A DNA stretch of 64,000 nt, taken from a virus. A program made the position numbers and the translations under genes. How positions within the stretch are numbered: the first letter of the stretch is position 1; every line of letters begins with the position of its first letter. Below the pieces are notes generated by a model that had not been told where the DNA came from, did not search any database, and saw nothing but the letters and a program-made list of their open reading frames with translations. The stretch spans positions 347-64,346 of the IMG/VR virus record IMGVR_UViG_3300034088_000032; one strand, written 5' to 3'. Positions 9,272 to 61,249 of the stretch are shown piece by piece.

Positions 9272-9970
9272 TCAACCCAGTTCCGCGAGGGCTCTGCGGG
9301 CCTCGTCGACGATGGGTGCCATCAGGGATGTGTGGACCGCCTTGCGGTAGCGCATGAATAGGTCGAGCCCTTCGTGTGAGCCGATGCCTGGGCTTATCCG
9401 CGGCATCGGCGGATGCCACAGGTGGTATAGGGACGAAGGCGACCGCCACGGGCCGCCTGCGAGAACGTACAGCGCTCGCGCCCATGACAGGTCTTCCTGC
9501 CCCCACCCTTCGAACCTGGGATCGATCGGTATCGTCCGGGCGGTGCCGATGGGTAGTACGACCATGCCGCCGCCCGGTTGGCCTACGTACCGGTCCGCCA
9601 GTGATGACGTCGGTACGGGCTCGTCTGGCAGGCGCCTGTCGGCGTACACCTGCGTCGTGGCGAGCGGGGACAGGCGTAGGACGGTACGGAATGGTGCAGC
9701 CCAGGCGTAGCCCTGCTCGACCGCCACGACGGCGAGGTTGACGCCGGGCACGATCACGTCGGCGTCGCTGATCACGACGTGTGTGGTGTCGACCTCGTCG
9801 AGGGCGCGGTCGACCGCGCATCCTTTGCGCCACTGCGTGTCCGGCTGGTGGGTGCCCAGCACGATCGGATACCGCGGGTGGTGCGTCGTCCACCAGTCGA
9901 CGACGTATTCGAGCGCTGCCTCCCGGTGTGGGCAGCCGGGCCTCCAGGGGATGACGACGGTGACGCTCAT
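9272..9970 (-). CDS. Glycosyltransferase (GT2/GT7-like)
   Basis: VVIPWR start, DAD motif, RFEGWGQED, YHLWH. Confidence 0.88.
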   Translation of the reverse strand: MSVTVVIPWRPGCPHREAALEYVVDWWTTHHPRYPIVLGTHQPDTQWRKGCAVDRALDEVDTTHVVISDADVIVPGVNLAVVAVEQGYAWAAPFRTVLRLSPLATTQVYADRRLPDEPVPTSSLADRYVGQPGGGMVVLPIGTARTIPIDPRFEGWGQEDLSWARALYVLAGGPWRSPSSLYHLWHPPMPRISPGIGSHEGLDLFMRYRKAVHTSLMAPIVDEARRALAELG

Positions 9971-10755
9971 ACCTGCCACCGCAGGTAGGGGGCAGGGTCC
10001 CTGACGAGACCATGGTCGTCTGGGTTCTGGTACCAGTAGTGCTCCTGGAAGACCAGTGCGAGTACCGACGGGCCGCCCGCGTCGAGGAGCTTGCCCCATG
10101 CGCGCCAGTGCGCGCCCTGGTCCTCGGGGAGGTCGGTCGCGGCGTACGCGGCAGCGCCTTGTCGGACCTTCGATATGAACTGGTCCGCAGACCGGATCAT
10201 GAAGTGACGGATCTCGATACCGATGTCGGTGGTGCCGGGCGCTGGGAGGTCGACGCCGTGGTTGCCCTGGTGAATGACCGCCCCTTCCTGGTAGCGGAAC
10301 GCGATTTTCGGTAGTGCGCCTGGGGTACGCGCCCGCCACACCATGGACCGGAACGGGTCGTCGCTCAACTCATCGAGCGACGTGCGGTAGTGATTGGTCA
10401 GGGATGCCGTGCAGGCCGTGACCGTGTCCGGGTATGCGGCGAGCACGTCGCGGAGCCGGCCGCTTGGGTGGTACCACAGTTCGTCGGCGTCGAACGGCAC
10501 GATCCACGTTGCGCCTCTCCTGTGCGCCTGTGCGGCGAGGCGGCTCATTTTGATCGACTGGTAGTACGCCGGGTCGCCGTCGTCGACGATCGTCATCGGA
10601 ATCGTCGACTCCATCGACGCCAGGATCTCGCGGGTTCCGTCCGTCGAACCGTTGTCGAGGACGATGATGTCGTCGACCTCGTCTGCCATGTGTTCGAGGA
10701 CGCCGGTAATGACGTCACGTTCGTTCTTGACCATGGTGATACCGACCGTGCCCAT
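9967..10755 (-). CDS. Glycosyltransferase family 2
   Basis: MVKNE, DNGSTDGT, WIVPFDADE, QGNH. Confidence 0.9.
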   Translation of the reverse strand: MGTVGITMVKNERDVITGVLEHMADEVDDIIVLDNGSTDGTREILASMESTIPMTIVDDGDPAYYQSIKMSRLAAQAHRRGATWIVPFDADELWYHPSGRLRDVLAAYPDTVTACTASLTNHYRTSLDELSDDPFRSMVWRARTPGALPKIAFRYQEGAVIHQGNHGVDLPAPGTTDIGIEIRHFMIRSADQFISKVRQGAAAYAATDLPEDQGAHWRAWGKLLDAGGPSVLALVFQEHYWYQNPDDHGLVRDPAPYLRWQV

Positions 10756-10756
10756 G

Positions 10757-11398
10757 TCAGTGCCTCCTGGCGTTGTAGAGCACCGGGTGTACCAGCGGCC
10801 ACACCGGGGCGAGTGGGGTGTCGAACAGGGCAGGGTACCGGTCTGGTACGCAAGTTGCGACGAGGATGTTCTGCGCATACCAATTTTCGATATGTGGATT
10901 CTCCCAGAACCGGAACCGTAATGCCCCCGAGCAGACGTAGCCGTGGCAGGCGAACGTGTTTTTCCAGTATTCCGGCCACTGCTCGTTTACGTGGCCGTGG
11001 CCGCCCTGTCCCGGAATCGCGGCGCTGAATACCACGGTCGGGGCGAGCCGGCACAGGTCTCCGACGAACGAGTTCGCCCGGTGCGGGGGCAGGTGCTCGG
11101 CGACTTCTAGGGATACCGCGAGGTCGAACGTACCGAGATCGTCGGGGAGCGCCTGGTCGAGGTCGACGCGGCGGAACGGGATGTTCGTCAGTGAGACGTC
11201 GGCGTCCCGGTCGACGCCGAGTACACGGCAGCCGTGCCCTGCGGCGAACTGACGTGCCCACCAGCCTTCGCCGCAGCCAACGTCAACGACCGTGGCGGGG
11301 TGTCCGAGTTCCTCGCAGAGCACGGGTACGACATGCTCGGCCGAGGTGATGATCCCCTGACGGATCACGTCGAAGAATCCTCGAGTATATTCGGCCAT
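10757..11398 (-). CDS. Class I SAM-dependent methyltransferase (glycan-modifying type)
   Basis: VVDVGCGEGWW, FDLAVSLEVAEHL, FSAAIPGQGG.GHVNEQ. Confidence 0.9.
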   Translation of the reverse strand: MAEYTRGFFDVIRQGIITSAEHVVPVLCEELGHPATVVDVGCGEGWWARQFAAGHGCRVLGVDRDADVSLTNIPFRRVDLDQALPDDLGTFDLAVSLEVAEHLPPHRANSFVGDLCRLAPTVVFSAAIPGQGGHGHVNEQWPEYWKNTFACHGYVCSGALRFRFWENPHIENWYAQNILVATCVPDRYPALFDTPLAPVWPLVHPVLYNARRH

Positions 11399-28513: not shown

Positions 28514-29077
28514 TCAGTCGCGACCGGCGCTGCCGGGCATGAGCGTCATCGTCAGCCATCCGTCGATGCCGTTGCACCGGGTGGCACTCAGGCCGAGCCG
28601 CATGAACGCGTCGATCAGGCGCCGCTTGAGGGTGACCGCACGAACCTCGCCGGTGCGTCGGTCCTGAAGTCTGATCGTCAGCCAGCTGACGTCACCGTAC
28701 GTGCGGGTGATCGTGCCGTTGTCGATCAACGCGTACTCGGTGTCGTCGTCGGTGCCGTTGTCGCGCCAGGTGAGGGTGGCGAGGTAACGGTCGCTGGTGT
28801 CACCGTAGCCGGGGTCGTAGCGGACGACCTCGTCGTACGGGTCGCGGATGACCCGGCCGCCGCTGGTGATCCTGGGGGCGGTCTCGACACCGGCCTCGAT
28901 GGTCTCGACGACGGTCTCGACGACGGTCTCGACACGCTCGTGGTGGCAGTAGGTGTCGCAGTGTCCGGCGGAGATCATCGGCTCGTTGCAGCAGACCGAG
29001 TACCCGTCAACGCCGCGGTCGGTGCTTCCGCAGAACTGGCAGTGGTCGGGCTGGTCGAGAAAGTCTGTCGTCGTCAT
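28514..29077 (-). CDS. Hypothetical protein with Cys-rich N-terminus, leaderless
   Basis: TAGACA-18-TACACT-6-ATG; VETV repeats. Confidence 0.7.
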   Translation of the reverse strand: MTTTDFLDQPDHCQFCGSTDRGVDGYSVCCNEPMISAGHCDTYCHHERVETVVETVVETIEAGVETAPRITSGGRVIRDPYDEVVRYDPGYGDTSDRYLATLTWRDNGTDDDTEYALIDNGTITRTYGDVSWLTIRLQDRRTGEVRAVTLKRRLIDAFMRLGLSATRCNGIDGWLTMTLMPGSAGRD

Positions 29078-37262: not shown

Positions 37263-37463
37263 TCAGCCTGCCGCCAACGGTACACCGTGACGGCGGATGG
37301 TCTCAACCTCGACGAGCCGGCCGAGTCGCCGGCACGCCTCGCCCAGGCGGTTGAGGCGATCGCCGGGCAGCTCCTCGACGATCGCGGACAGGTCCCGGTC
37401 GGCGTCGCGGTACGCGTCGAGGATCGTCCGGTACGCGTCGCAGGGGCATGCTGGGTTGGTCAT
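37263..37463 (-). CDS. Hypothetical protein
   Basis: GGAGG RBS, ATGA overlap. Confidence 0.55.
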   Translation of the reverse strand: MTNPACPCDAYRTILDAYRDADRDLSAIVEELPGDRLNRLGEACRRLGRLVEVETIRRHGVPLAAG

Positions 37464-38401
37464 GACCGGGCTCCTCCCTGGTCGAGCAGCTGGCCCACGA
37501 TGCCAACCGACTTGGGCGACCAGCGGCCCAGGCGGAGGACGTCGGAGATCTGGGCACCGCGGGCGAGGTCGTCGCGGCCTCCCCCGACCCGTAGTGCTCT
37601 TGGCGTACAGCGGGGTACGCCTGCACGGGTGACGTGGACCGCCCAGATCCGCGACAGTGCACCGACGCGCAGCCGGCACTGCTCCCCGAGGTGCCCGGCG
37701 AATGTCACCCCTGGCTGGCCGATCGTGTCGAATCGGTCGACCGGCCGGAACAGCGGTCCTGCGGTGACGCCTGCCGCGGCGAGTGCCGCGATCCAGCCGG
37801 CCGCGGCCTCGACCGGACAGATCCCGGGCGGGTCGTGGTCGTGGTCGAGCGTGACCGTGCCGTACCGGAACCGTACGGCCAGGTTCTCCCCGTCGATGTC
37901 GACGTCGGACAGGTCGAGGGCGACGAGGTCGTCGGGTCGGGCGAGGAGGTCCCACACCATCGTGATCAGGCACAGGTCCCGGCGGCCGGCGGCCGTGTCG
38001 AGGTCGCACGTCGCGGCGAGTGCCGCGACGATCGGCCGATCGGCCGGGTTGACCTTCGTCCTGGTTGGCGGCGTATGGTTGGCGGCACGCAGCACGAACC
38101 ACGCGGCTACGTCATCGGGTACGGGCGACCCGAGTTGACGGTGTCGGGTCTTCACCGCAGCGAGCCGTTTCCGGACGGTCGCTGGTGCGTATCCGCTGGT
38201 CAGTAGGTGCGTCGCGTATGCGGCGAGTGCATCGGAGGACCAGGGCATGAGCGATCGGCCGGTACTTCTGTACCAGTCCTCTGCCTCTGTCCACAGCTTG
38301 GCGTACATGGTCCTCGTGCGTTCGGAGAGTTTGCCCTTGCGGCCTTTCCCACCTGCGGTAACAGCCAGGTCTGCGATCTTGTCGTATCGAGGCTCGTCCA
38401 C
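37460..38401 (-). CDS. Cre-like tyrosine recombinase, catalytically degenerate
   Basis: SAM-like N-terminus (T...Y...W, APATVRKRL.AV), GRRD..L, LARPDDL, GPLFR; HxxR reads RALR and no Tyr follows GRW. Confidence 0.8.
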   Translation of the reverse strand: MDEPRYDKIADLAVTAGGKGRKGKLSERTRTMYAKLWTEAEDWYRSTGRSLMPWSSDALAAYATHLLTSGYAPATVRKRLAAVKTRHRQLGSPVPDDVAAWFVLRAANHTPPTRTKVNPADRPIVAALAATCDLDTAAGRRDLCLITMVWDLLARPDDLVALDLSDVDIDGENLAVRFRYGTVTLDHDHDPPGICPVEAAAGWIAALAAAGVTAGPLFRPVDRFDTIGQPGVTFAGHLGEQCRLRVGALSRIWAVHVTRAGVPRCTPRALRVGGGRDDLARGAQISDVLRLGRWSPKSVGIVGQLLDQGGARS

Positions 38402-38575
38402 GTCGGTGCCTGCCTTTTTCTGATCTTCCACCGGTCTGGTGTAAGGACCGAGAATACTCGTTCCCCCCTGTTTGAGGGGAATCCGGGCGGGACCCGGTGG
38501 TCCGGGCGATCTGCCTGGTGGCGGGTTCGCCCGGGGTGGCACCGGCCGTGGGGGGACGACTCTCCCGTGTTTGTC

Positions 38576-45803: not shown

Positions 45804-46522
45804 CTCGCACCGTCCCGGGCCCGGTCGTACGCGAGCACGGCCGCGCGGCCAGTGTCGGTCAGCCGGTACCAGCGCCGGCCGTGCAGTGCCCGTGCGCCCT
45901 CCTCACACCAGCCGGCCGCGAGGACAGCCCTCGCGCGTTCAGTTCTGCTGCCGCCGTCCACATGCCACGCGCGGCCGTGCTCCGCGTATACCCGGCGGGA
46001 CTCCATCTCGTCGAGGAACCTGCGGCGGACAGGGGTCATCGCGGTGGGGACGCCGGTTCGTGGCGGAACCGGGCCGCACATGGGGAGAGTCTCGGATGGA
46101 CGGACTTCCTCCAGGTCGTGTCCGTAGACACGACGTTCGCCTGCACCGTAGGGGGCGAGCTGAGCGTCGAGGCCGACCGAGAGGCCGGACGTGTCCCATT
46201 CGGCGACGTGGCCGAGCGCGGCGGCGAGCGCCGCGACAGTGTCGCGACGGGCGGTGGCATCGTCGGTGCCGCCAGCGCCTGGAGACGTTACCTGGAGGCT
46301 GACATGCAGCCAGGTGCACGCGATCTCGTCGTCGTGGGTCCGTGCCCACTCCGCGAGCTGGTCTGCCGTGGCTCGGAGCCCGGCCACAATCGCGCCGATG
46401 CTGGTGGTCGTGGGGGCAGGCGGGTACTCGACGGTGGGCGGGCTGACGACGTCGTCATCCGTCGGGGTCAGCCGAAGGGGCGAGGCGGGTTGGGCCGTTT
46501 GATGGTCCGGTGTGCTGGTCAC
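45800..46522 (-). CDS. Hypothetical protein, possible C-terminal winged helix
   Basis: YRLTDTGRAAV; start uncertain. Confidence 0.5.
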   Translation of the reverse strand: MTSTPDHQTAQPASPLRLTPTDDDVVSPPTVEYPPAPTTTSIGAIVAGLRATADQLAEWARTHDDEIACTWLHVSLQVTSPGAGGTDDATARRDTVAALAAALGHVAEWDTSGLSVGLDAQLAPYGAGERRVYGHDLEEVRPSETLPMCGPVPPRTGVPTAMTPVRRRFLDEMESRRVYAEHGRAWHVDGGSRTERARAVLAAGWCEEGARALHGRRWYRLTDTGRAAVLAYDRARDGAR

Positions 46523-46566
46523 GGGCGTAACTCCGATCCGTGGGGGTCGTTGGTAGGTGCGTGATA

Positions 46567-46899
46567 TCAGGCCGCGGGGGTCAGGCTGTACCGGAGCTGG
46601 TCGAGCTTGGCCTCCTCGCCGGCGGTCAACGGGTCGACCTCGTCGATCATGTCGGCGATGACGTCGGCGAGGGTCCTGCTCCCCTGGTCGCGACGGCGAC
46701 AGATGAGGCTGTAGTCCAGACGGAGTCGGATGGCGAGGACGCTGGCGCACCGGCGGCAGAGGTGGCCCCGGTCGCTGGGCCGGACGTCCCGGGCCTTGAG
46801 GATCCGGCCCGAACCGGACCCGCAGTACGCCCAGCCGTGGATCGCCAGGTGCAGGCGGGCTCCGCGACGGTTGGTGACTTGGCCGACCAGCGTGTACAT
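46567..46899 (-). CDS. Zinc-binding hypothetical protein
   Basis: H..YCG..CRRC; GGAG RBS. Confidence 0.55.
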   Translation of the reverse strand: MYTLVGQVTNRRGARLHLAIHGWAYCGSGSGRILKARDVRPSDRGHLCRRCASVLAIRLRLDYSLICRRRDQGSRTLADVIADMIDEVDPLTAGEEAKLDQLRYSLTPAA

Positions 46900-47077
46900 C
46901 ACTCCGGGTACCCCCTCATCTCTATACCGACAGTCTATCACCTCTCGTCATGCTGTTCAACCACTGGTATAGTCACTGAGGTGAGGGTGCGTCCCCCAAA
47001 CGACCGACGGCGTCCCCGCCGATCACGGACCTACTCTCACCGATGAGGCCAGCCACGCCATGACCAGAGGAAATGCC

Positions 47078-47686
47078 ATGAATCTGGACGCTTTGAGCTG
47101 CGACTGTCCGGACTGCCCAGCCGGCATTCTCGCGCGTCACCTACTCGAGGAGAATGCCCGGCTCCGCAACCTCGCCGGCGCGGACGAGCTGACCGGGCTG
47201 CTCAACCGCCGCGGGATGCGCGCGACCTGGTCGACCTGGTGCCGCGCCGGAGGCGACCTGATCCGCGCGACCGTCGCGGGTGTCGCGATGCTCGACCTCG
47301 ACCTGTTCAAGCCGGTCAACGACAAGCACGGGCACGAGGCCGGCGACCGGGTGCTGCGACGTCTCGCCGACCTGATCCGCAGGACAGGCGGTACCGGGGT
47401 CCGGCTCGGCGGCGATGAGTTCGCCGTCTTCCTCAGCAACGCCCACGGTGCATACGACCCGTTCGACGCGCTACGGACCCTCGCCGCGGCCGTAGCGGAA
47501 CCGATCGCGGTCACGTCGCGCGACAAGGTCGAGGTGACCCTGTCGATCGGTGCGGTCGGGATCGACGAGGTCGACCAGGACGACGACCCGGAAACCTGGC
47601 TCGGCCACCTGCTGCGGACCGCCGACATGCGGCTGTACATGGCCAAGGACGCTGGCCGCGCACGGATCGTGGGGCCCGGACGATGA
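47078..47686 (+). CDS. Standalone diguanylate cyclase (GGDEF)
   Basis: DELTGLLNRRG, DLDLFK.VND.HGH.AGD.VL, RLGGDEF, SIG, AD..LY.AK..GR. Confidence 0.95.
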   Translation: MNLDALSCDCPDCPAGILARHLLEENARLRNLAGADELTGLLNRRGMRATWSTWCRAGGDLIRATVAGVAMLDLDLFKPVNDKHGHEAGDRVLRRLADLIRRTGGTGVRLGGDEFAVFLSNAHGAYDPFDALRTLAAAVAEPIAVTSRDKVEVTLSIGAVGIDEVDQDDDPETWLGHLLRTADMRLYMAKDAGRARIVGPGR

Positions 47687-48306
47687 TCGTCGACGAGTTC
47701 ACCTCGACGATCAGGTTGTCCTGCGGCCTCCAACGCGTCACGGTGCGCCTGGTGTACTGCGTCGACGACCCGGTCGCGGTACGCCTCGACATCAGCGCCG
47801 GCCAGACGACCAGGACATGGCGGTTCGCCCGGTCGCTGCTCGCCGACGCGGCCTGTCTCGGTGTCGCCGGTCTCGGTTTCGTCCGGGTCTGCCGGGTCGG
47901 CGTCCTGGGCTCCACACTGCTGTGGACCACCCTCGACGGCGCCAACGGCAGCGCCGACCTGGCGTTGCCCGGCGACCGGGTCGCCCGGTGGCTGGCACTC
48001 ACCGAGGAACTGTCACCCGTCGGGTCTGAGCACGTCGACGTCGACGGGCTGGCCTGGCGGTTGGTGACCGAGGCACCGGCCGGGCGGCTGGTCGCCGTCG
48101 CCGGCGACCCGGCGACAGTACGCGGCGCGCGCAGTCCCGGGGCGCTGGTGTGGACACGGCCGGGGCGTGCCCGGTCACGTCGGCACCGCGGTGAGGACCC
48201 GGTCGACAGGCCGCCCCGCAACCGGGCGACACGGAGCAGGCTTGGCGGAGTTCTGCCCGGGTCCGACGACGACGACGGCGACGAGCAGGCGGGGTCGTCG
48301 CTGTGA
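47683..48306 (+). CDS. SsgA-family sporulation/cell-division regulator with C-terminal extension
   Basis: L.Y..DDP.AV.L, W.FARSLL.D, AG.G.VRV, A.L.LP...V..WL..T..L.P.G.E. Confidence 0.75.
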   Translation: MIVDEFTSTIRLSCGLQRVTVRLVYCVDDPVAVRLDISAGQTTRTWRFARSLLADAACLGVAGLGFVRVCRVGVLGSTLLWTTLDGANGSADLALPGDRVARWLALTEELSPVGSEHVDVDGLAWRLVTEAPAGRLVAVAGDPATVRGARSPGALVWTRPGRARSRRHRGEDPVDRPPRNRATRSRLGGVLPGSDDDDGDEQAGSSL

Positions 48307-48404
48307 CAAGCAGTGCTAACGCGGCGCTTCCGGTCCTCGCGCCTGGCGGCGCTGCGGTCCGGGTCACCTTGTTCTCGGATCGGGTGGTCCAGGTCCGGAG
48401 GGCC

Positions 48405-48435
48405 TGGACCGTCAGGTCATACTAGTGTAGTATGG
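48405..48435 (+). promoter_or_regulatory. Class B promoter/operator
   Basis: TGGACC-17-TAGTAT; CATACTA-GTG-TAGTATG. Confidence 0.7.
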
Positions 48436-48468
48436 TCCCTGTCCGGTTACGACCAGCCAGGAGCGACC

Positions 48469-48927
48469 ATGACCATCCAGACCCCCACCGCCGACCAGCT
48501 CGCCACCATGCAAGAGATCGCCGGGCGCTACGGCAGCACGTCGGAGGCGCGCACCTGCGGGTACATCGCCCTCGACGGGTACACCGTCGTCCCCGAAGGC
48601 GTCGTCGTCACGGCCGGCGACCAGGTCGTCGTGCGTGGCCGCGGGAACCAGTGGCGCCGGGGTCTCGTGGTCGGCCTCGGGCGCACGCGGATCATGGTCG
48701 GCACGTTCAACAGGTCCGCTGCGCTGGACCAGGCCGTGAGGGTGGCATCGTACCCGCGGGCCGCCGTGATGCTCGCGACCCACACCTGCACACGGTGCGG
48801 GTCATTCATCCACCCGGTGTACGACGACCTCGACGCCGTCGACGTCACCGGGCGCCGGTACTGCTCGGACACCTGCCTCTACATCCACCGGGAGGCCGAG
48901 CGTCCGGTGGTCGGCGCGAACGCCTGA
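48469..48927 (+). CDS. Hypothetical protein with C-terminal CxxC..YCSxxC finger
   Basis: AGGAG RBS; CTRC, YCSDTC. Confidence 0.7.
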   Translation: MTIQTPTADQLATMQEIAGRYGSTSEARTCGYIALDGYTVVPEGVVVTAGDQVVVRGRGNQWRRGLVVGLGRTRIMVGTFNRSAALDQAVRVASYPRAAVMLATHTCTRCGSFIHPVYDDLDAVDVTGRRYCSDTCLYIHREAERPVVGANA

Positions 48928-48985
48928 CCAGCACACCTCCTGCGACCACCATTGCCTCGACCAGGGCGGGGTGGCCGCAGGCGGT

Positions 48986-49327
48986 TCAGGACTGTGTCAG
49001 GTGGTGTTTAGATTGGCCGGCGGGCCGGATCTGTACCCCCGCGCCGCGGAGGCGGTGGAGGATCGTGCCGGGGTCACGCCCGGCGTCGACGGCGATGGCC
49101 GTAGATGGCTCTCCGGCCCGGTAGCGGCGTGCCCACTCCGCGACATCGTCCCTGGTGATAGGGCGTCGGGGTTTGGGGCGGCGCATGATGCCGGCCACGG
49201 TGATGGCGTGGCGGACTGCACCGCGACTGCGGCGGGTGGCGATGGCGATGGCGCGGATGCTCTGGCGGCGCCGGTAGCGGCGGGTGATGTCGGCACGCTC
49301 GTCGTCGGTGAGCCTGGTTCCGGACAT
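48986..49327 (-). CDS. Double HTH DNA-binding protein
   Basis: RRY...SIRAIA....S.GAV..I..AG repeated twice. Confidence 0.8.
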   Translation of the reverse strand: MSGTRLTDDERADITRRYRRRQSIRAIAIATRRSRGAVRHAITVAGIMRRPKPRRPITRDDVAEWARRYRAGEPSTAIAVDAGRDPGTILHRLRGAGVQIRPAGQSKHHLTQS

Positions 49328-49616
49328 TGATTCCTCGGGCGGTGGTGGCGGGGTTTGAACAGTGGTGGCAGCGGTCCGAACCGAGGGGTGGCGTTTCGGG
49401 ACCGCGTTCCCAGCGCGCCGGTCCCCCGCCACCCCCCGGGTTCCCCCCTCCCGGTAGGGAACGCCTGGCCCCGCGATTCCCCCGGCTCCCGGCGTAGTGG
49501 GCAGGCGGACCGGTCCCAGACGATCACCGTACACGGAGCGTGTGCGAGATTGGGTTGCCGACCGAGCGTGTCTCACCGCCCTGTACGGTCGTACCACGCT
49601 AGTGTAGTATGACCTT

Positions 49617-49733
49617 ATGACCTTCCTTGTGCAGCAGCATTTCCCGCTCGGCGATGGTCGCCTGCGCCACTGCTCGTGCACGGCGTCCTGGCCCTGCCCG
49701 AAGCGGGCCAACCTCGCGGGAGTACTCCGGTGA
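49617..49733 (+). CDS. 38-aa leaderless peptide
   Basis: TAGTAT-6-ATG; H..CSC...WPCP. Confidence 0.5.
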   Translation: MTFLVQQHFPLGDGRLRHCSCTASWPCPKRANLAGVLR

Positions 49734-50063
49734 GCTTCCGATTCACACGCCGTAAGAACGGCCGTCACATGACGACCGTGCACACCCACCACCACATCAC
49801 CGGCGACGACCTGGTCGCCATCGTCGCGCCGTTCCTGCGCCCGGTCGACGTCGCCCAGGGTCGCCCGTTCACGGAGTTCCACACGATGTCGCGGGGCGAG
49901 ATCGTCGACCTTGTCCGCTCCGAACTGCACCGGTACGGCGCCGATGGGCACTGGTCGTGGCGCGACCAGTTCCCCGACCCGGACGAGGTCGACGCGCGCA
50001 AGGAGTTCGCCACCAACCTGATCGCCAACCGTGGCCAGAAACCGACTTCGACTTCGACGACTG
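49730..50063 (+). CDS. Hypothetical protein, probable -1 frameshift near 50030
   Basis: LIANR continues in the -1 frame as WPETDFDFDD*, ending before the next promoter. Confidence 0.5.
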
Positions 50064-50112
50064 AGCAGGCCGGGGGTTGTCGGCCGTACCACACTAGTGT
50101 AGTATGGGTGTC

Positions 50113-50664
50113 ATGACGACGACCGGCCTCCCCCGCCTGCTGACCAAGCGTCGGCACCAGATCCTCCGCGCCACCCGGAAAGGCGACGCACGCTGGAGGG
50201 TCCGCCCATCCGGACGGATCTTCACCGACGTCATCGGCACCAGCCGTAACCGGCCCTCCACCTACGAGATGGACCAGCTCATCGCCATGGGCCTGATCGT
50301 CCGCTCGAACACCCGTGTCGGCGAGTACGACGCCTGGTACTACGAGCTGACCACCGACGGCGTCAGGGCCCTCGAACAGGCCGACTGCCTGGTCGGTGTC
50401 CGGGTCATCGACGAGGGCACCACGGTCACGGCGTACGTGGCCGACTCCCCGATCGAGTCGACCGACGTCCTCCTGGCCCCCACGGCGCGCCCTGATGTTC
50501 ACGTCCTCGCTCGCGTGTCGCGCGTGTTCGCCCACTCGGGGGGAGCCTGGTGGGGGTGGATCGTCGACACCTACTCGACGAACTACCCGTTGCCGCGGGT
50601 CACCAAGGAGATCGCCGTCGCGTACCTGCTCGGCGAGGCCGCTGAGAAGAACCGCGGCGCCTGA
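50113..50664 (+). CDS. Winged-helix-like hypothetical protein, leaderless
   Basis: TTGTCG-17-TAGTAT-7-ATG; L.AMGLI..YELTTDG..AL. Confidence 0.7.
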   Translation: MTTTGLPRLLTKRRHQILRATRKGDARWRVRPSGRIFTDVIGTSRNRPSTYEMDQLIAMGLIVRSNTRVGEYDAWYYELTTDGVRALEQADCLVGVRVIDEGTTVTAYVADSPIESTDVLLAPTARPDVHVLARVSRVFAHSGGAWWGWIVDTYSTNYPLPRVTKEIAVAYLLGEAAEKNRGA

Positions 50665-58796: not shown

Positions 58797-59573
58797 TTAG
58801 ATCGTCTCGGCACGTTCAGCCTGGACTGCACCGACTGTCGGAGCTGGTGCCTGCCTCTGCCCGTGCGTCGACGCCCACCACGCGGCGACGTCCTCGAGGT
58901 GGTCGCTGCCACCAGGCACCCGCGGCGGCGCGTACGCGAACGAGCCGTCGGCCCGGTGGTCAGCCAACGTGCAACCCCCGAGCCCCTTCGCCAGGCGGTA
59001 TACGGTGTTCGGACGCCACCGGTCCAACCACTCCTCGACCCTGGTCGGATCGGAAGTCTTGCCGGTGTACGCGTGCTTCCACGACTGCCAGACACCGAGC
59101 AGTTCCGACACCGCCCACGGGTGGTACGCCCAACAGTGCGGTAGGGACGAGTCCGGATACCGCGCCCACACCTGCGCGATCCACTCCGCCAGGCCGTCGA
59201 GCAGGCGGCGGGACTGCTCGACGTCGTCGATCGTCAGCCACGACGGCTGGCCCTTGGGCTTCTTCTCGTCGTCTGCGGTCAGGGCTGCGATGGCCTCCTC
59301 GACCTCGGCTCGCCACGTGCCGTACCCGTCGAGATGGGCGCCCATCGCCTCGGCGAGTTTCGCCACATCCTCACGGGTGTGGCCGGCGGCGGTCGCCGCG
59401 GCTGACGCCTGCGCCGATGCCTGGTCGACGTCGCCGCGCATGTCGTTGATATCGCGGCCGATCACGTTCAGGGTCGCGCGGATACCGCGCAGCTGCTCGG
59501 GGGTGTCGTCGCCCCGGGGCCGGCGTTTACCGACGCCGGCCGCGCCCGGGAGTTGCTGCTGTTCGTCGCTCAT
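58797..59573 (-). CDS. DUF4913-like protein with N-terminal coiled coil
   Basis: L.EW...VW..Y, PHCWAYHPWAV.EL..VW..W..AY, W..RW. Confidence 0.7.
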   Translation of the reverse strand: MSDEQQQLPGAAGVGKRRPRGDDTPEQLRGIRATLNVIGRDINDMRGDVDQASAQASAAATAAGHTREDVAKLAEAMGAHLDGYGTWRAEVEEAIAALTADDEKKPKGQPSWLTIDDVEQSRRLLDGLAEWIAQVWARYPDSSLPHCWAYHPWAVSELLGVWQSWKHAYTGKTSDPTRVEEWLDRWRPNTVYRLAKGLGGCTLADHRADGSFAYAPPRVPGGSDHLEDVAAWWASTHGQRQAPAPTVGAVQAERAETI

Positions 59574-61249
59574 GCGTCCTCGCCGCCTGCATCGCGGGTG
59601 TCCTCGTCGAGTTCGGTCGCCGTCTCGAACGCCGTCTCGATCGTTGGACGCCATGGTGATCGTTTCATCGCCCGCTTGATGTCGCGACGCTTCCACGCCA
59701 TGCGGGTACGGACCAGGCAGGCGGGCATGCCTCGTGTGATCAGCATGGCGTGACCGGTGGGAAGGTTCGCGATCTGCGCGGTCGAGAGGACCGGCACCGC
59801 CCTGTGCGTCGACGAGATCACCCGGCCGCCCTTGTCCCTGGTCTCGACGACCTCCCGGCGTTCACCTGACAACTTGGAGAATGCGTCCAGGTCGGACGGG
59901 TCACGTGCCGCGCCGTACACGACGATCGAGGCAGCATTGTTCATGATCGTCCCTGCGCCCTCGTCGCCCCACCGTTGACGGAGTTGACTTCGTCCTTGCA
60001 CAGATATGACGATCTTGATGCATCGTCCGCCCATGTCGGCCGTCCACTGGTCCAGTGGCACCGGACAGACCAGCGCGGCTTCGTCGAGTGCGATCAGCAG
60101 CGACGGGTCGAGCCGCTCGCTTGCCTGGTCCGCCGCAAGGGCGTGCGCGGCTCGGGCGATTTCGGCCGTGAACGCCGCGACCAGCGCGGCCGTGGCACCG
60201 TCCTCCTTGCCGAGCAGGTACATCGTCCCCTTGTCCGCGATGAACTGCCTGACGTCGAACGGGTCGCCACCGACGACATCTGCGAGGGCCGCGGCCCTTG
60301 GGTCGAGGAGCCAACGCATGGCGGGCATCATAGTCGTGGTGATCGATGTCTTCGTCTTGTCGTTCGTCGTGAAGAACTGCATGCATGCGGCCTGCATGGC
60401 CTGTGCCTCCGGCGACTCCCGCAGCGCGTTATGGACCTCACGTGCTGACGCCTCGGTTGGGTTCGAGATCCACTGGTGGACCCTCGACATCGGCCGGTCG
60501 GCCATCGCCGCAGCGTGCAGCATCATGGCCAGAGCCCCCCGGGCCTGAACATCCCACCGTTCCGCCTCCGGGCTGTTCGCCGTCGGGATCATGTCGGCCG
60601 CCCTCGTCTGCGCGACCGACGGCACCTTGCAGCCCGCCAGAGGTGACCACTTCACTGTGGACGCCAGGCGTCCGAGCCCGGTCGGGTTGAACACGTGAAT
60701 CGGACCTACGTGCTGCCTCGTGGGGGCGGTCAGCTTGATGAGGTCGGTCCGCGTACTGGTGACGATCGCCGCGCCAGGCGCGTCGACGATCAGCCCAGCG
60801 ATCGCGCCCGTCTTGCCTGTCCGCGGTCCGCCGACAAACAACACCGTGTCCTCGACCGACGTCATGACCCGCCGGCGCCCATCACGCGCCAGCTCGTACG
60901 AGTAGTCGGTGACCGGGTGTCTGAGGAGTTCGTACCGACTGAGGCCGGCGAGCGATGGCTTGAGCTGCTGCGCACGGCGACGCATCGCCCGGACCGAGGT
61001 GACCTTCTCGTGGTTGATCCACGAGGCCGTCCCGCCGTTCCGGTTCGACGTGTGCTCCCACCTGGCCAAGAGCGCGTTCGTCGAGTTGCGGCGCATGTAC
61101 CAGAGCACAGGACGGCCAACCGTCCAGGCGGCCCCGCCCATCGTCAGGGGTACACCGATCTCGGGCCGGTACGACGACAGGACCAGGCCGAGCGACGCGG
61201 CGCCCGCCCCCACACCTGCACTGCTGAAAGGGAACCTGTATCCGCTCAT
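59570..61249 (-). CDS. Type IV coupling protein (VirD4/TraG-TraD family)
   Basis: N-terminal TMs; Walker A GGPRTGKT, TSTRTD, VFNP.G, WSPL.GC, LDEAA..CPVPL, QGRSQL..RWG. Confidence 0.9.
   Translation of the reverse strand: MSGYRFPFSSAGVGAGAASLGLVLSSYRPEIGVPLTMGGAAWTVGRPVLWYMRRNSTNALLARWEHTSNRNGGTASWINHEKVTSVRAMRRRAQQLKPSLAGLSRYELLRHPVTDYSYELARDGRRRVMTSVEDTVLFVGGPRTGKTGAIAGLIVDAPGAAIVTSTRTDLIKLTAPTRQHVGPIHVFNPTGLGRLASTVKWSPLAGCKVPSVAQTRAADMIPTANSPEAERWDVQARGALAMMLHAAAMADRPMSRVHQWISNPTEASAREVHNALRESPEAQAMQAACMQFFTTNDKTKTSITTTMMPAMRWLLDPRAAALADVVGGDPFDVRQFIADKGTMYLLGKEDGATAALVAAFTAEIARAAHALAADQASERLDPSLLIALDEAALVCPVPLDQWTADMGGRCIKIVISVQGRSQLRQRWGDEGAGTIMNNAASIVVYGAARDPSDLDAFSKLSGERREVVETRDKGGRVISSTHRAVPVLSTAQIANLPTGHAMLITRGMPACLVRTRMAWKRRDIKRAMKRSPWRPTIETAFETATELDEDTRDAGGEDA

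What the first reader, a model, noticed from the sequence alone, without database searches (positions are those of the whole stretch)
47060..48306. Phage-borne diguanylate cyclase-SsgA operon: candidate host-development hijack module
Seen: an intact GGDEF protein with no sensor domain, only a CxCxxC motif and a short coiled coil before DxLT. It lacks the RxxD inhibitory site (reads RTGG) and is ATGA-coupled to an SsgA-like gene, transcribed divergently from the replication arm. Known: in filamentous actinomycetes c-di-GMP controls development through BldD and RsiG-WhiG, and SsgA-family proteins position sporulation septa. GGDEF genes occur on actinomycete integrative elements. Inference: a feedback-free cyclase plus a septation factor could delay or redirect sporulation or compartmentalisation to favour virion output or spread in the mycelium.
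Basis: partly seen in the sequence, partly recalled or inferred. Interest (0 to 1): 0.85.

Follow-up and report, generated by a model that had tools for sequence, protein, structure and literature searches.

The report
Phage c-di-GMP cyclase plus SsgA-like pair
An uncultured phage of a high-GC actinomycete carries a two-gene cassette, a sensor-less maker of the signal c-di-GMP joined to an unusual tailed copy of a host cell-division (SsgA/SsgB-type) protein, which probably lets the phage interfere with host sporulation and septation but has not been tested.

Summary
The window is a tailed-phage record (major head, portal and terminase; nearest isolate Actinoplanes phage phiAsp2). At 47078 (or 47060) to 47686 it encodes a stand-alone GGDEF protein with every catalytic residue, a conserved CxCPDCP motif, one stalk helix and no RxxD I-site. 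This gene overlaps by ATGA a 207-aa gene whose first ~130 residues fold like SsgB. The rest is a disordered Arg-rich then acidic tail.

New here:
- The two proteins co-occur on three further metagenomic contigs, judged by matching contig length and source. One contig is only 2,748 bp.
- The tail is as conserved as the SsgA domain and is seen in no other SsgA-like protein (SALP) cluster of a 1.84-billion-protein library.
- The cassette has its own promoter-like site and an end hairpin, and lies outside the phage's 11-site operator regulon.
- No GGDEF relative was found in any actinophage among 50,697 phage records.

Less new: SsgA-like genes are already known in Streptomyces phages (Dagobah; the ~130-kb phages), and RxxD-less cyclases are common. 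This scan also noted a cyclase plus SsgA-like set in another phage before (e1-6069208).

Best reading (about 0.6): a host-development and cell-division takeover cassette. Function, direction of effect, host and timing of expression are all inferred. I rate it a new variant of a known kind, interest 0.6.

The parts
46945..46973 (+). promoter-like site TCGTCA-17 nt-TATAGT with TG before the -10, in the 118-bp divergent intergenic region
   Evidence: the only site found in 46400-50200; shuffles give a mean of 0.2. It is a consensus match only. None of the 11 operator sites lies here.
   Evidence: TIGR00254 101.8 bits against a cut-off of 37.4; AF2 mean pLDDT 92.8; Foldseek top hits are diguanylate cyclases; start argued
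47099..47116 (+). CxCPDC motif (Cys8, Cys10, Cys13 of the 202-aa form) directly before the stalk helix
   Evidence: conserved in 6 of 7 close relatives; function unknown
47381..47392 (+). I-site position, reads RTGG instead of RxxD
   Evidence: alignment to SadC RDGD. The 7 family members read RTGG, ATGG, ATKH, KSNH, ATGG, ETGG, QHGL. A wider set of stand-alone GGDEF proteins has RxxD in the consensus.
47408..47422 (+). GGDEF active-site motif (residues 111-115)
   Evidence: invariant
47683..48306 (+). SsgA-like (SALP) gene, 207 aa; its ATG overlaps the cyclase stop (ATGA)
47737..48030 (+). SsgA domain (residues 19-116); the folded core spans about residues 1-130
   Evidence: Pfam; AF2 pLDDT 87-98 for residues 1-130; SsgB structures 6suj/6slc/3cm1 at TM (target) 0.76-0.79
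48139..48303 (+). conserved C-terminal tail (residues 153-207): GALV[WF]TRPGR.RSRR..[DE]DP.[DE]RPPR...RSRL, then an acidic end GDE
   Evidence: 60-79% identical among 4 homologues, as much as the SsgA domain (59-74%); the linker 126-152 is only 24-44% identical. Predicted disordered, pLDDT about 50. Absent from other SALPs.
48383..48413 (+). 14-bp GC-rich hairpin after the SsgA-like gene, without a U-tract; possible terminator
   Evidence: 126 nt, -65.1 kcal/mol, z -3.49, 0 of 200 shuffles as good; coordinates. The pattern scan found no canonical terminator.
48418..48434 (+). first operator-type palindrome of the + strand regulon; marks the downstream boundary of the cassette
   Evidence: 14 matches at 11 sites against 0.01 expected

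Best explanation
This is a two-gene phage accessory cassette aimed at the host's developmental and cell-division control.

Gene 1 is a constitutively dimerising, sensor-less and product-insensitive diguanylate cyclase. It raises c-di-GMP in the infected hypha. In sporulating actinomycetes, high c-di-GMP keeps BldD active as a repressor and keeps sigma-WhiG sequestered by RsiG. The cell is therefore held in vegetative growth, the state in which phages replicate and spread best.

Gene 2 is made in fixed proportion by translational coupling. It is a divergent SsgB-fold protein with an extra conserved basic-then-acidic tail. It acts at the protein level on the machinery that SsgA/SsgB-type proteins control (FtsZ positioning and septal wall synthesis), either as a decoy that blocks sporulation septa or as an ectopic activator.

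Shown here: the domains, folds, intact catalytic residues, missing I-site, coupling, co-occurrence on other contigs, and a separate promoter-like site. Inferred: enzyme activity, the c-di-GMP targets, the direction of the SALP effect, the host (a filamentous or sporulating actinomycete, possibly Micromonosporaceae) and the timing.
For: - Catalysis-competent GGDEF. D36, N43, R44, D73, K78, N81, D82, G85, H86, G89, D90, R109, G111, G112 and E114 are invariant across 45 stand-alone GGDEF proteins and all are present here. N81 and D90 are the guanine-specifying pair of canonical cyclases (role recalled).
- Fold matches c-di-GMP-bound cyclases, including the coiled-coil plus GGDEF enzymes DgcB (6ttr) and SiaD (7e6g).
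- No sensor domain: Pfam finds only GGDEF. RxxD is lost in all 7 family members.
- SALP fold: pLDDT 87-98 over residues 1-130, SsgB TM 0.76-0.79, and a profile hit to SsgB chains.
- ATGA overlap.
- Co-occurrence by matching contig length and source: cyclase and SALP relatives pair on contigs of 82,080 bp (P0004/P0125), 12,426 bp (P0006/P0002) and 2,748 bp (P0005/P0280). On the 2,748-bp contig they must lie within about 2.7 kb of each other.
- The tail is as conserved as the SsgA domain.
- The cassette has its own promoter-like site and an end hairpin, and sits outside the operator regulon.
- No integrase of either type and no EAL domain in the record. This favours a role during lytic growth and unopposed synthesis.
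- Published rationale: development contains phage infection in S. venezuelae (PMC10117723); the BldD c-di-GMP mechanism is conserved in sporulating actinomycetes (PMC5499655); SALPs mark septation sites and SsgB recruits FtsZ (PMC4255298).
Against: - There are no activity, expression or phenotype data of any kind.
- The host is unknown. The portal is only 42% identical to phiAsp2, and the habitat is freshwater or sediment metagenomes.
- One relative of the cyclase on a 14,979-bp contig (P0007) had no SALP partner detected.
- The SALP is divergent: 25-38% identical to cellular SALPs, the 'GDV' Asp is replaced, and it falls far below every NCBIfam SALP subfamily cut-off (33.6 against 185 bits). 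It may not do what SsgA or SsgB do.
- High c-di-GMP alone should already repress sporulation genes, so the need for a SALP is unexplained.
- The record is about 86% complete, so an integrase or a phosphodiesterase could lie in the missing part.
- The promoter and hairpin are only pattern and energy predictions.
Confidence: 0.6

Rival explanations
1. Lysogenic-conversion 'moron'. The cassette is expressed from a resident prophage or plasmid-prophage, not during lytic growth. It changes the lifestyle of the lysogen, for example prolonged vegetative growth, altered fragmentation or dispersal.
For: The architecture is moron-like: its own promoter-like site, an end hairpin, and a position outside the 11-site operator regulon that starts 5 bp after the hairpin. 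A small HTH_58/HTH_38 regulator gene lies nearby on the opposite strand. ParB-like and TraG/VirD4-like genes occur in the record. Prophage effects on Streptomyces dispersal are published (PMC11302927, search listing only).
Against: There is no Phage_integrase and no Resolvase match in the 64,346-bp record. The Cre-like ORF gives only a weak N-terminal SAM-like hit (E 0.003). None of 401 sampled genomes of the class of an Actinomycetota MAG holds a close relative of the cyclase at E <= 1e-25. The genome-contig scan found none above 43% identity, and that over a part only. So no integrated copies were seen.
Confidence: 0.2
2. The cyclase serves a purpose other than development. It could change the cell envelope or receptors (superinfection exclusion), or interfere with host cyclic-nucleotide immunity. 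In that case the SsgA-like protein is an unrelated neighbour or a scaffold.
For: GGDEF genes occur in phages of non-sporulating hosts: 70 phage records, including Bacillus phage SP-15 and Escherichia, Pseudomonas and Acetobacter phages. Seven PHROG families of unknown function also match. Phage GGDEF genes therefore need not target sporulation.
Against: The gene is translationally coupled to, and co-inherited with, a protein family confined to developmentally complex actinomycetes. Neither protein matches PADLOC. No effector or receptor gene lies in the cassette.
Confidence: 0.12
3. Recently captured host genes without a function for the phage (passenger DNA), or a catalytically dead GGDEF receptor.
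For: Both families are cellular in origin. No function has been shown.
Against: Four contigs keep both proteins at 55-79% identity, with all catalytic residues and the extra tail conserved. No close cellular relative was found. The next-best cyclase hits are at or below 42% identity. Only one SALP cluster with the tail appears among 1.84 billion representatives.
Confidence: 0.05

Closest known systems
SsgA-family gene of Streptomyces phage Dagobah (gp31, 154 aa) and the unannotated SsgA-like genes of ~130-kb Streptomyces phages (TunaTartare, BillNye, Ibantik, Patelgo and others)
   Same: A phage-borne single SsgA-domain protein with the same fold: BFVD hits TM (target) 0.66-0.82; tblastn of a Frankia-type SALP hits 39 Streptomyces phage records. 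It has been proposed, without tests, to manipulate host development (PMC7650747, passages; PMC10117723).
   Different: Only 28% identical over 98 residues to the Dagobah protein, and not detected by tblastn at E <= 0.01. Those phage proteins are 120-154 aa and have no C-terminal tail. None sits beside a GGDEF gene: the Dagobah neighbourhood is shown, and no Streptomyces phage appears among the 70 GGDEF-bearing records.
Cellular SsgB (S. coelicolor 6slc/6suj; Thermobifida fusca 3cm1)
   Same: Same fold (TM 0.76-0.79, 25-30% identity). Conserved SALP positions are kept: P30, W46, R50, L52, L53, G63, G65, V67, P112, G114, E116.
   Different: It is encoded by a phage. It has about 75 extra residues of conserved disordered tail. 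The Asp of the common G-x-G-D-V motif is replaced (F, A or T in the clade). It falls below all NCBIfam SALP subfamily cut-offs.
Minimal coiled-coil plus GGDEF cyclases (Caulobacter DgcB 6ttr; Pseudomonas SiaD 7e6g, which is switched on by a small partner protein, SiaC)
   Same: One N-terminal helix followed by a GGDEF domain, and no sensor domain. Like SiaD, it is encoded next to a small partner protein.
   Different: It has an N-terminal CxCPDCP motif and no RxxD site, and it is encoded by a phage. A partner interaction is not shown.
GGDEF genes of other phages and mobile elements (Bacillus phage SP-15 'diguanylate cyclase', Escherichia phages vB_EcoM-613R3 and vB_EcoS-683R6, Acetobacter phage phiAX1; SXT/R391 elements DgcK/DgcL, the last recalled)
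   Same: A mobile-element-borne cyclase that could rewire host c-di-GMP (annotations).
   Different: At most about 39% identical, in hosts that are not actinomycetes, and none paired with a SALP. 0 of 5 GGDEF-bearing IMG/VR records searched have an SsgA match.
Scan note e1-6069208: diguanylate cyclase, SsgA-like protein and truncated TetR in another uncultured phage
   Same: The same two families together in a phage, with the same reading.
   Different: It is an unchecked AI note. No word-level sequence similarity to this cyclase or SALP was found. That set lies among replication genes, and nothing says the two genes are coupled.

Membership tests
GGDEF diguanylate cyclases (Pfam PF00990 / TIGR00254) | Domain model above the curated cut-off | tested here: met
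   PF00990 89.4 bits against 23.8; TIGR00254 101.8 bits against 37.4
GGDEF diguanylate cyclases (Pfam PF00990 / TIGR00254) | GG[DE]EF active-site motif plus metal- and GTP-binding residues (DxLT..NRR, D-x-D-x-FK-x-x-ND-x-x-GH-x-x-GD) | tested here: met
   All 16 columns invariant in 45 stand-alone GGDEF proteins are present in the window protein; alignment to SadC. The roles of the residues are recalled.
GGDEF diguanylate cyclases (Pfam PF00990 / TIGR00254) | GGDEF fold | tested here: met
   AF2 mean pLDDT 92.8. Foldseek gives 96 PDB matches at E <= 1e-3; the top ones are cyclases, with TM (target) up to 0.84.
GGDEF diguanylate cyclases (Pfam PF00990 / TIGR00254) | Product-inhibition I-site RxxD, five residues before GGDEF (optional, not defining) | tested here: not met
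   RTGG here; absent in 7 of 7 family members
GGDEF diguanylate cyclases (Pfam PF00990 / TIGR00254) | Homodimerisation and synthesis of c-di-GMP from GTP | not testable with these tools
   Only a predicted stalk helix at residues 14-33. An enzyme assay is needed.
SsgA-like proteins (SALPs, Pfam PF04686) | Domain model above the curated cut-off, full length | tested here: met
   52.9 bits against 25, profile positions 1-98 of 98; 54.8 bits in the six-frame search
SsgA-like proteins (SALPs, Pfam PF04686) | SsgB-type fold | tested here: met
   pLDDT 87-98 over residues 1-130; 6slc/6suj/3cm1 at E 5e-9 to 3e-6 and TM (target) 0.72-0.79
SsgA-like proteins (SALPs, Pfam PF04686) | Small single-domain protein of about 120-160 aa | tested here: not met
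   207 aa with a conserved 55-residue tail plus linker. In the representative search, single-stretch SALP hits are mostly 111-195 aa.
SsgA-like proteins (SALPs, Pfam PF04686) | Membership of a named subfamily (SsgA, B, D and so on) | tested here: not met
   Only NF052496 SsgD, at 33.6 bits against a cut-off of 185
SsgA-like proteins (SALPs, Pfam PF04686) | Controls septum-site selection or FtsZ recruitment | not testable with these tools
   Needs localisation and interaction experiments in a host
Phage moron / auxiliary cassette | Its own promoter and terminator, and not needed for the virion or for replication | tested here: inconclusive
   One promoter-like site and a strong hairpin without a U-tract, outside the operator regulon. 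No transcript data.

The most novel reading that the evidence does not exclude
The pair is a self-contained phage second-messenger circuit, not two independent host mimics. The cyclase has lost its own RxxD product site. The conserved Arg-rich tail of the SsgA-like protein carries an RxxD-P-x-[DE]-RPPR motif in 4 of 4 homologues and would be the receptor for the c-di-GMP made next door. This would give a c-di-GMP-gated cell-division factor. Alternatively, the SALP would anchor the cyclase at future septum sites so that signalling is local. It would be the first SsgA-family protein wired directly to a nucleotide signal, and the first phage-encoded writer-reader pair for c-di-GMP.
Probability: 0.1. 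Interest if true: 0.85.

Novelty: new variant of a known kind. Interest (0 to 1): 0.6.

Why it matters
Phage manipulation of actinomycete development is widely suspected, from WhiB-, Lsr2- and SsgA-like phage genes, but it has barely been tested.

This cassette links the master developmental signal (c-di-GMP) and a division-site protein in one translationally coupled, co-inherited unit. That gives a compact, clonable test system. Expressing one gene, the other, or both in Streptomyces, Actinoplanes or Micromonospora would show two things: whether a phage can lock its host in the susceptible vegetative state, and what an SsgB-fold protein with a new tail does to septation.

A small, sensor-less cyclase that is insensitive to its product could also be a handy tool for raising c-di-GMP in actinomycetes.

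Against this, phage SsgA-like genes and phage GGDEF genes are each already known, and nothing here is functional evidence.

Tried and rejected
**Context of the relatives.** As a substitute I matched contig lengths and sources.

**Scans that found no close relative:**
- Viral contigs with the SALP, the cyclase, the 2-sequence SALP alignment, P0007 (9 loci, all at or below 37% identity) and P0125.
- A back-translated tail pattern (22 loci). None encodes a SALP relative by tblastn.
- Genome contigs with P0004 (41 loci, at or below 36% identity over most of the query; 40-43% only over a part).
- Metagenome contigs with the family alignment. All 80 loci were at or below 41% identity, so that scan was in effect wasted.

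**Other negative searches:**
- 0 of 401 sampled genomes had the cyclase at E <= 1e-25.
- Rfam over the whole window: no family.
- The 5' leader 46978-47085 folds no better than shuffles (z -1.23), so I dropped the riboswitch idea.
- PADLOC: no match for 5 proteins.
- ESM Atlas on the tail: no usable hit.
- WhiB, EAL, Phage_integrase and Resolvase: no match in the record.

**Complex prediction, cyclase with SALP:** no verdict (score 0.00, mark 0.32). It is not used as evidence either way.

**Sequencing runs:**
- No RNA holder is listed.
- Three DNA runs from 3 studies (freshwater, sediment) hold small, near-identical fragments, some inside the cyclase gene. One of them may be the source sample.
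- The depth spike at 47204-47470 comes from other organisms' GGDEF genes.
- No piece spans the cassette, so this says nothing about linkage.

**Readings rejected:**
- A Hypr-type (cGAMP-making) GGDEF, because the Asp of the GD pair is kept (the rule is recalled).
- A BldD-like bipartite RXD-X8-RXXD signature in the tail, which is not present (read by eye).

**Literature.** Six searches returned no paper describing a GGDEF gene in an actinophage or a cyclase-SALP pair. 'Streptomyces phage' plus 'GGDEF' gave 1 paper, with no such content. The gene tables of Hardy et al. 2020 and of actinophage regulator surveys could list such genes.
Full report
**What is there**

The window is positions 347-64346 of a 64,346-bp IMG/VR virus record with a CheckV completeness estimate of 86%. 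GC is 0.64-0.72 throughout. A GC3-based gene call puts nearly all genes from 1 to 46941 on the - strand. It puts most genes from 47060 onward on the + strand.

The - arm holds a major head protein (phrog_777, 2.3e-134), a portal (phrog_776, 1.6e-153), a large terminase (phrog_38, 1.1e-74), a ParB-like protein and a Rad52-family recombinase. The portal's best match among 50,697 phage records is Actinoplanes phage phiAsp2 (42% identity over 94% of the query, E 7e-106). The other hits are actinophages at or below 33%. So this is a tailed phage of a high-GC actinomycete. The host is otherwise unknown. Near-identical fragments occur in freshwater and sediment metagenome runs.

**The two genes**

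*Cyclase.*
- ORF 47060-47686 matches Pfam GGDEF (2.8e-25) and TIGR00254.
- The likely start is the second ATG, at 47078. It has a GAGGA box 6-7 nt upstream. The database gene call is 202 aa, and relatives begin MN...
- Numbering the 202-aa form, Cys8, Cys10 and Cys13 form CxCPDC. An AlphaFold2 model (mean pLDDT 92.8) has one helix at residues 14-33, followed by a GGDEF domain.
- Foldseek's best PDB matches are diguanylate cyclases. They include the coiled-coil plus GGDEF enzymes DgcB and SiaD.
- All 16 columns that are invariant in an alignment of 45 stand-alone GGDEF proteins are present.
- The position of the RxxD product-inhibition site reads RTGG.

*SsgA-like gene.*
- It starts at 47683 with an ATGA overlap and matches Pfam SsgA over the whole profile (3.6e-14).
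- Its AlphaFold2 model has pLDDT 87-98 for residues 1-130 and about 50 for the rest.
- The folded part matches S. coelicolor and T. fusca SsgB crystal structures (TM normalised to target 0.72-0.79, 25-30% identity).

**Relatives and conservation**

In the 5.8-billion-cluster collection the cyclase has six close relatives (59-78% identity) and then a sharp drop to 42% or below. The close ones keep CxCPDCP in 6 of 7 sequences. None of the 7 has RxxD.

The SsgA-like protein has three relatives, P0002, P0125 and P0280, at 55-58% identity. An exhaustive HMMER scan of 1.84 billion representatives gave 410 hits at E <= 1e-3 but only one at E <= 1e-30. That one is P0125. The rest are ordinary SALPs, mostly 111-195 aa, at E 1e-12 or weaker, plus a few long repetitive proteins.

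| Contig | Source | Cyclase | SALP |
|---|---|---|---|
| 82,080 bp | NCBI + Logan | P0004 | P0125 |
| 12,426 bp | Logan | P0006 | P0002 |
| 2,748 bp | ENA | P0005 | P0280 |

Adjacency is therefore inferred. It is close to forced only for the 2,748-bp contig. A fourth cyclase relative on a 14,979-bp contig had no partner detected.

The extra C-terminal part of the SALP is not junk. Residues 153-207 are 60-79% identical among the four proteins. The SsgA domain is 59-74% identical and the linker only 24-44%. The tail reads GALV[WF]TRPGR.RSRR..[DE]DP.[DE]RPPR...RSRL and ends in an acidic GDE stretch.

**Regulatory setting**

- The 118-bp gap between the first - strand gene (46567-46941) and the cyclase holds the only sigma-70-like site found in 46400-50200: TCGTCA, 17 nt, TATAGT, with TG before the -10.
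- After the SsgA-like stop there is a 14-bp GC hairpin at 48383-48413 (z -3.49).
- Five bases further on begins a 17-nt palindrome. It recurs at 11 sites (14 matches against 0.01 expected), mostly in front of + strand genes. None of these sites lies at the cassette's promoter.
- The next gene (48469-48927) therefore has its own control, and a - strand HTH_58/HTH_38 gene follows at 48986-49327.
- The cyclase-SALP pair thus looks like an autonomous two-gene unit under different control from the neighbouring regulon.
- No Phage_integrase, Resolvase, EAL or WhiB domain is detectable in the record.

**How it most likely works**

From established knowledge: c-di-GMP-bound BldD represses developmental genes. 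The c-di-GMP-binding signature is conserved in BldD of almost all sporulating actinomycetes (PMC5499655, passages). RsiG-WhiG control is recalled, not checked here. SsgA marks division sites and SsgB recruits FtsZ, and SALPs are confined to developmentally complex actinomycetes (PMC4255298, passages).

Luthe et al. showed that a vegetative-locked bldN mutant of S. venezuelae gives large plaques that do not shrink. A hypersporulating bldD mutant gives small plaques and fast regrowth of resistant cells (PMC10117723, passages).

A sensor-less cyclase without an I-site would push the host toward the state that favours the phage. The coupled SALP would act directly on the division machinery. It could be a decoy that blocks sporulation septa already licensed before transcription is shut off. 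Or it could be an ectopic activator. I cannot tell which.

I put 0.6 on this host-development and division takeover reading. I put 0.2 on the same genes acting as a lysogenic-conversion moron, 0.12 on a non-developmental use of c-di-GMP, and 0.05 on passenger DNA.

**Comparison with what is known**

Phage SsgA-like genes are known. Dagobah's is annotated and discussed (PMC7650747). A tblastn with a Frankia-type SALP finds 40 phage records at E <= 1. Of these, 39 are Streptomyces phages, and 23 of the 40 listed rows are at E <= 1e-3. BFVD has matching models from TunaTartare, BillNye and Ibantik.

This scan has several earlier notes of SsgA-like genes in uncultured actinophages. One of them (e1-6069208) describes a cyclase plus an SsgA-like gene in another phage. 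That note is unchecked, and its proteins share no words with these.

Phage GGDEF genes also exist, in 70 of 50,697 records, but none is from an actinophage. 0 of 5 GGDEF-bearing IMG/VR records that I searched have an SsgA match.

Three things are new:
- the coupled, co-inherited pair;
- the CxCPDCP cyclase lineage with no close cellular relative;
- a SALP with a conserved Arg-rich tail, seen in one cluster only.

It fails two SALP membership features, size and subfamily cut-off, while meeting the domain and fold features.

**Verdict**

I rate it a new variant of a known kind. Interest is 0.6: a specialist would find the pairing and the tail notable and directly testable, but each component class has precedent and there are no functional data.

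Noticed in passing
window 35557, 48418, 49595, 50090, 50687, 52060, 52991, 54513, 55581, 56022, 58336: A 17-nt palindrome (CATACTAGTGTAGTATG type) recurs at 11 sites: 14 strand matches with up to 3 mismatches, against 0.01 expected. Most sites lie in front of + strand genes. It looks like one repressor's operator set. The cyclase-SALP promoter lacks it.
   Followed up: partly
window 48986-49327 (-): A 113-aa protein with HTH_58 (5.8e-11) and HTH_38 (1.5e-8) domains is encoded on the - strand between + strand genes. It is a candidate for the regulator of the operator set.
   Followed up: no
window 59570-61249 (-): A TraG/VirD4-type coupling protein (T4SS-DNA_transf 1.5e-19, TraG-D_C 1e-18, TrwB_AAD_bind 1.9e-16) sits in a tailed-phage record. 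This is unusual for a phage.
   Followed up: no
window 37460-38542 (-): The Cre-like ORF gives only a weak N-terminal SAM-like integrase hit (E 0.003). The record has no Phage_integrase catalytic-domain match.
   Followed up: partly
window 28568-28660 (-): ARAGORN calls a 93-nt tRNA-Leu(CAA). It lies inside an ORF (28514-29077, -) that has strong coding GC3 of 0.90, so either the tRNA call or the ORF may be wrong.
   Followed up: no
window 48469-48927 (+): A 152-aa protein directly after the cassette has a C-terminal CxxC...CxxxC pattern. It has no Pfam, PHROG or PADLOC match and has its own operator-type promoter.
   Followed up: no
phage record MT838510.1 (5,175 bp, 'Bacteriophage sp.', human faecal samples): This record holds an SsgA-like match (34.9% identity, E 5e-13, to a Frankia-type SALP). 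That is an odd habitat for a protein family of sporulating actinomycetes.
   Followed up: no
window 9967-10878 (-): A glycosyltransferase-like gene lies between the head genes (phrog_13126, 6.9e-9).
   Followed up: no
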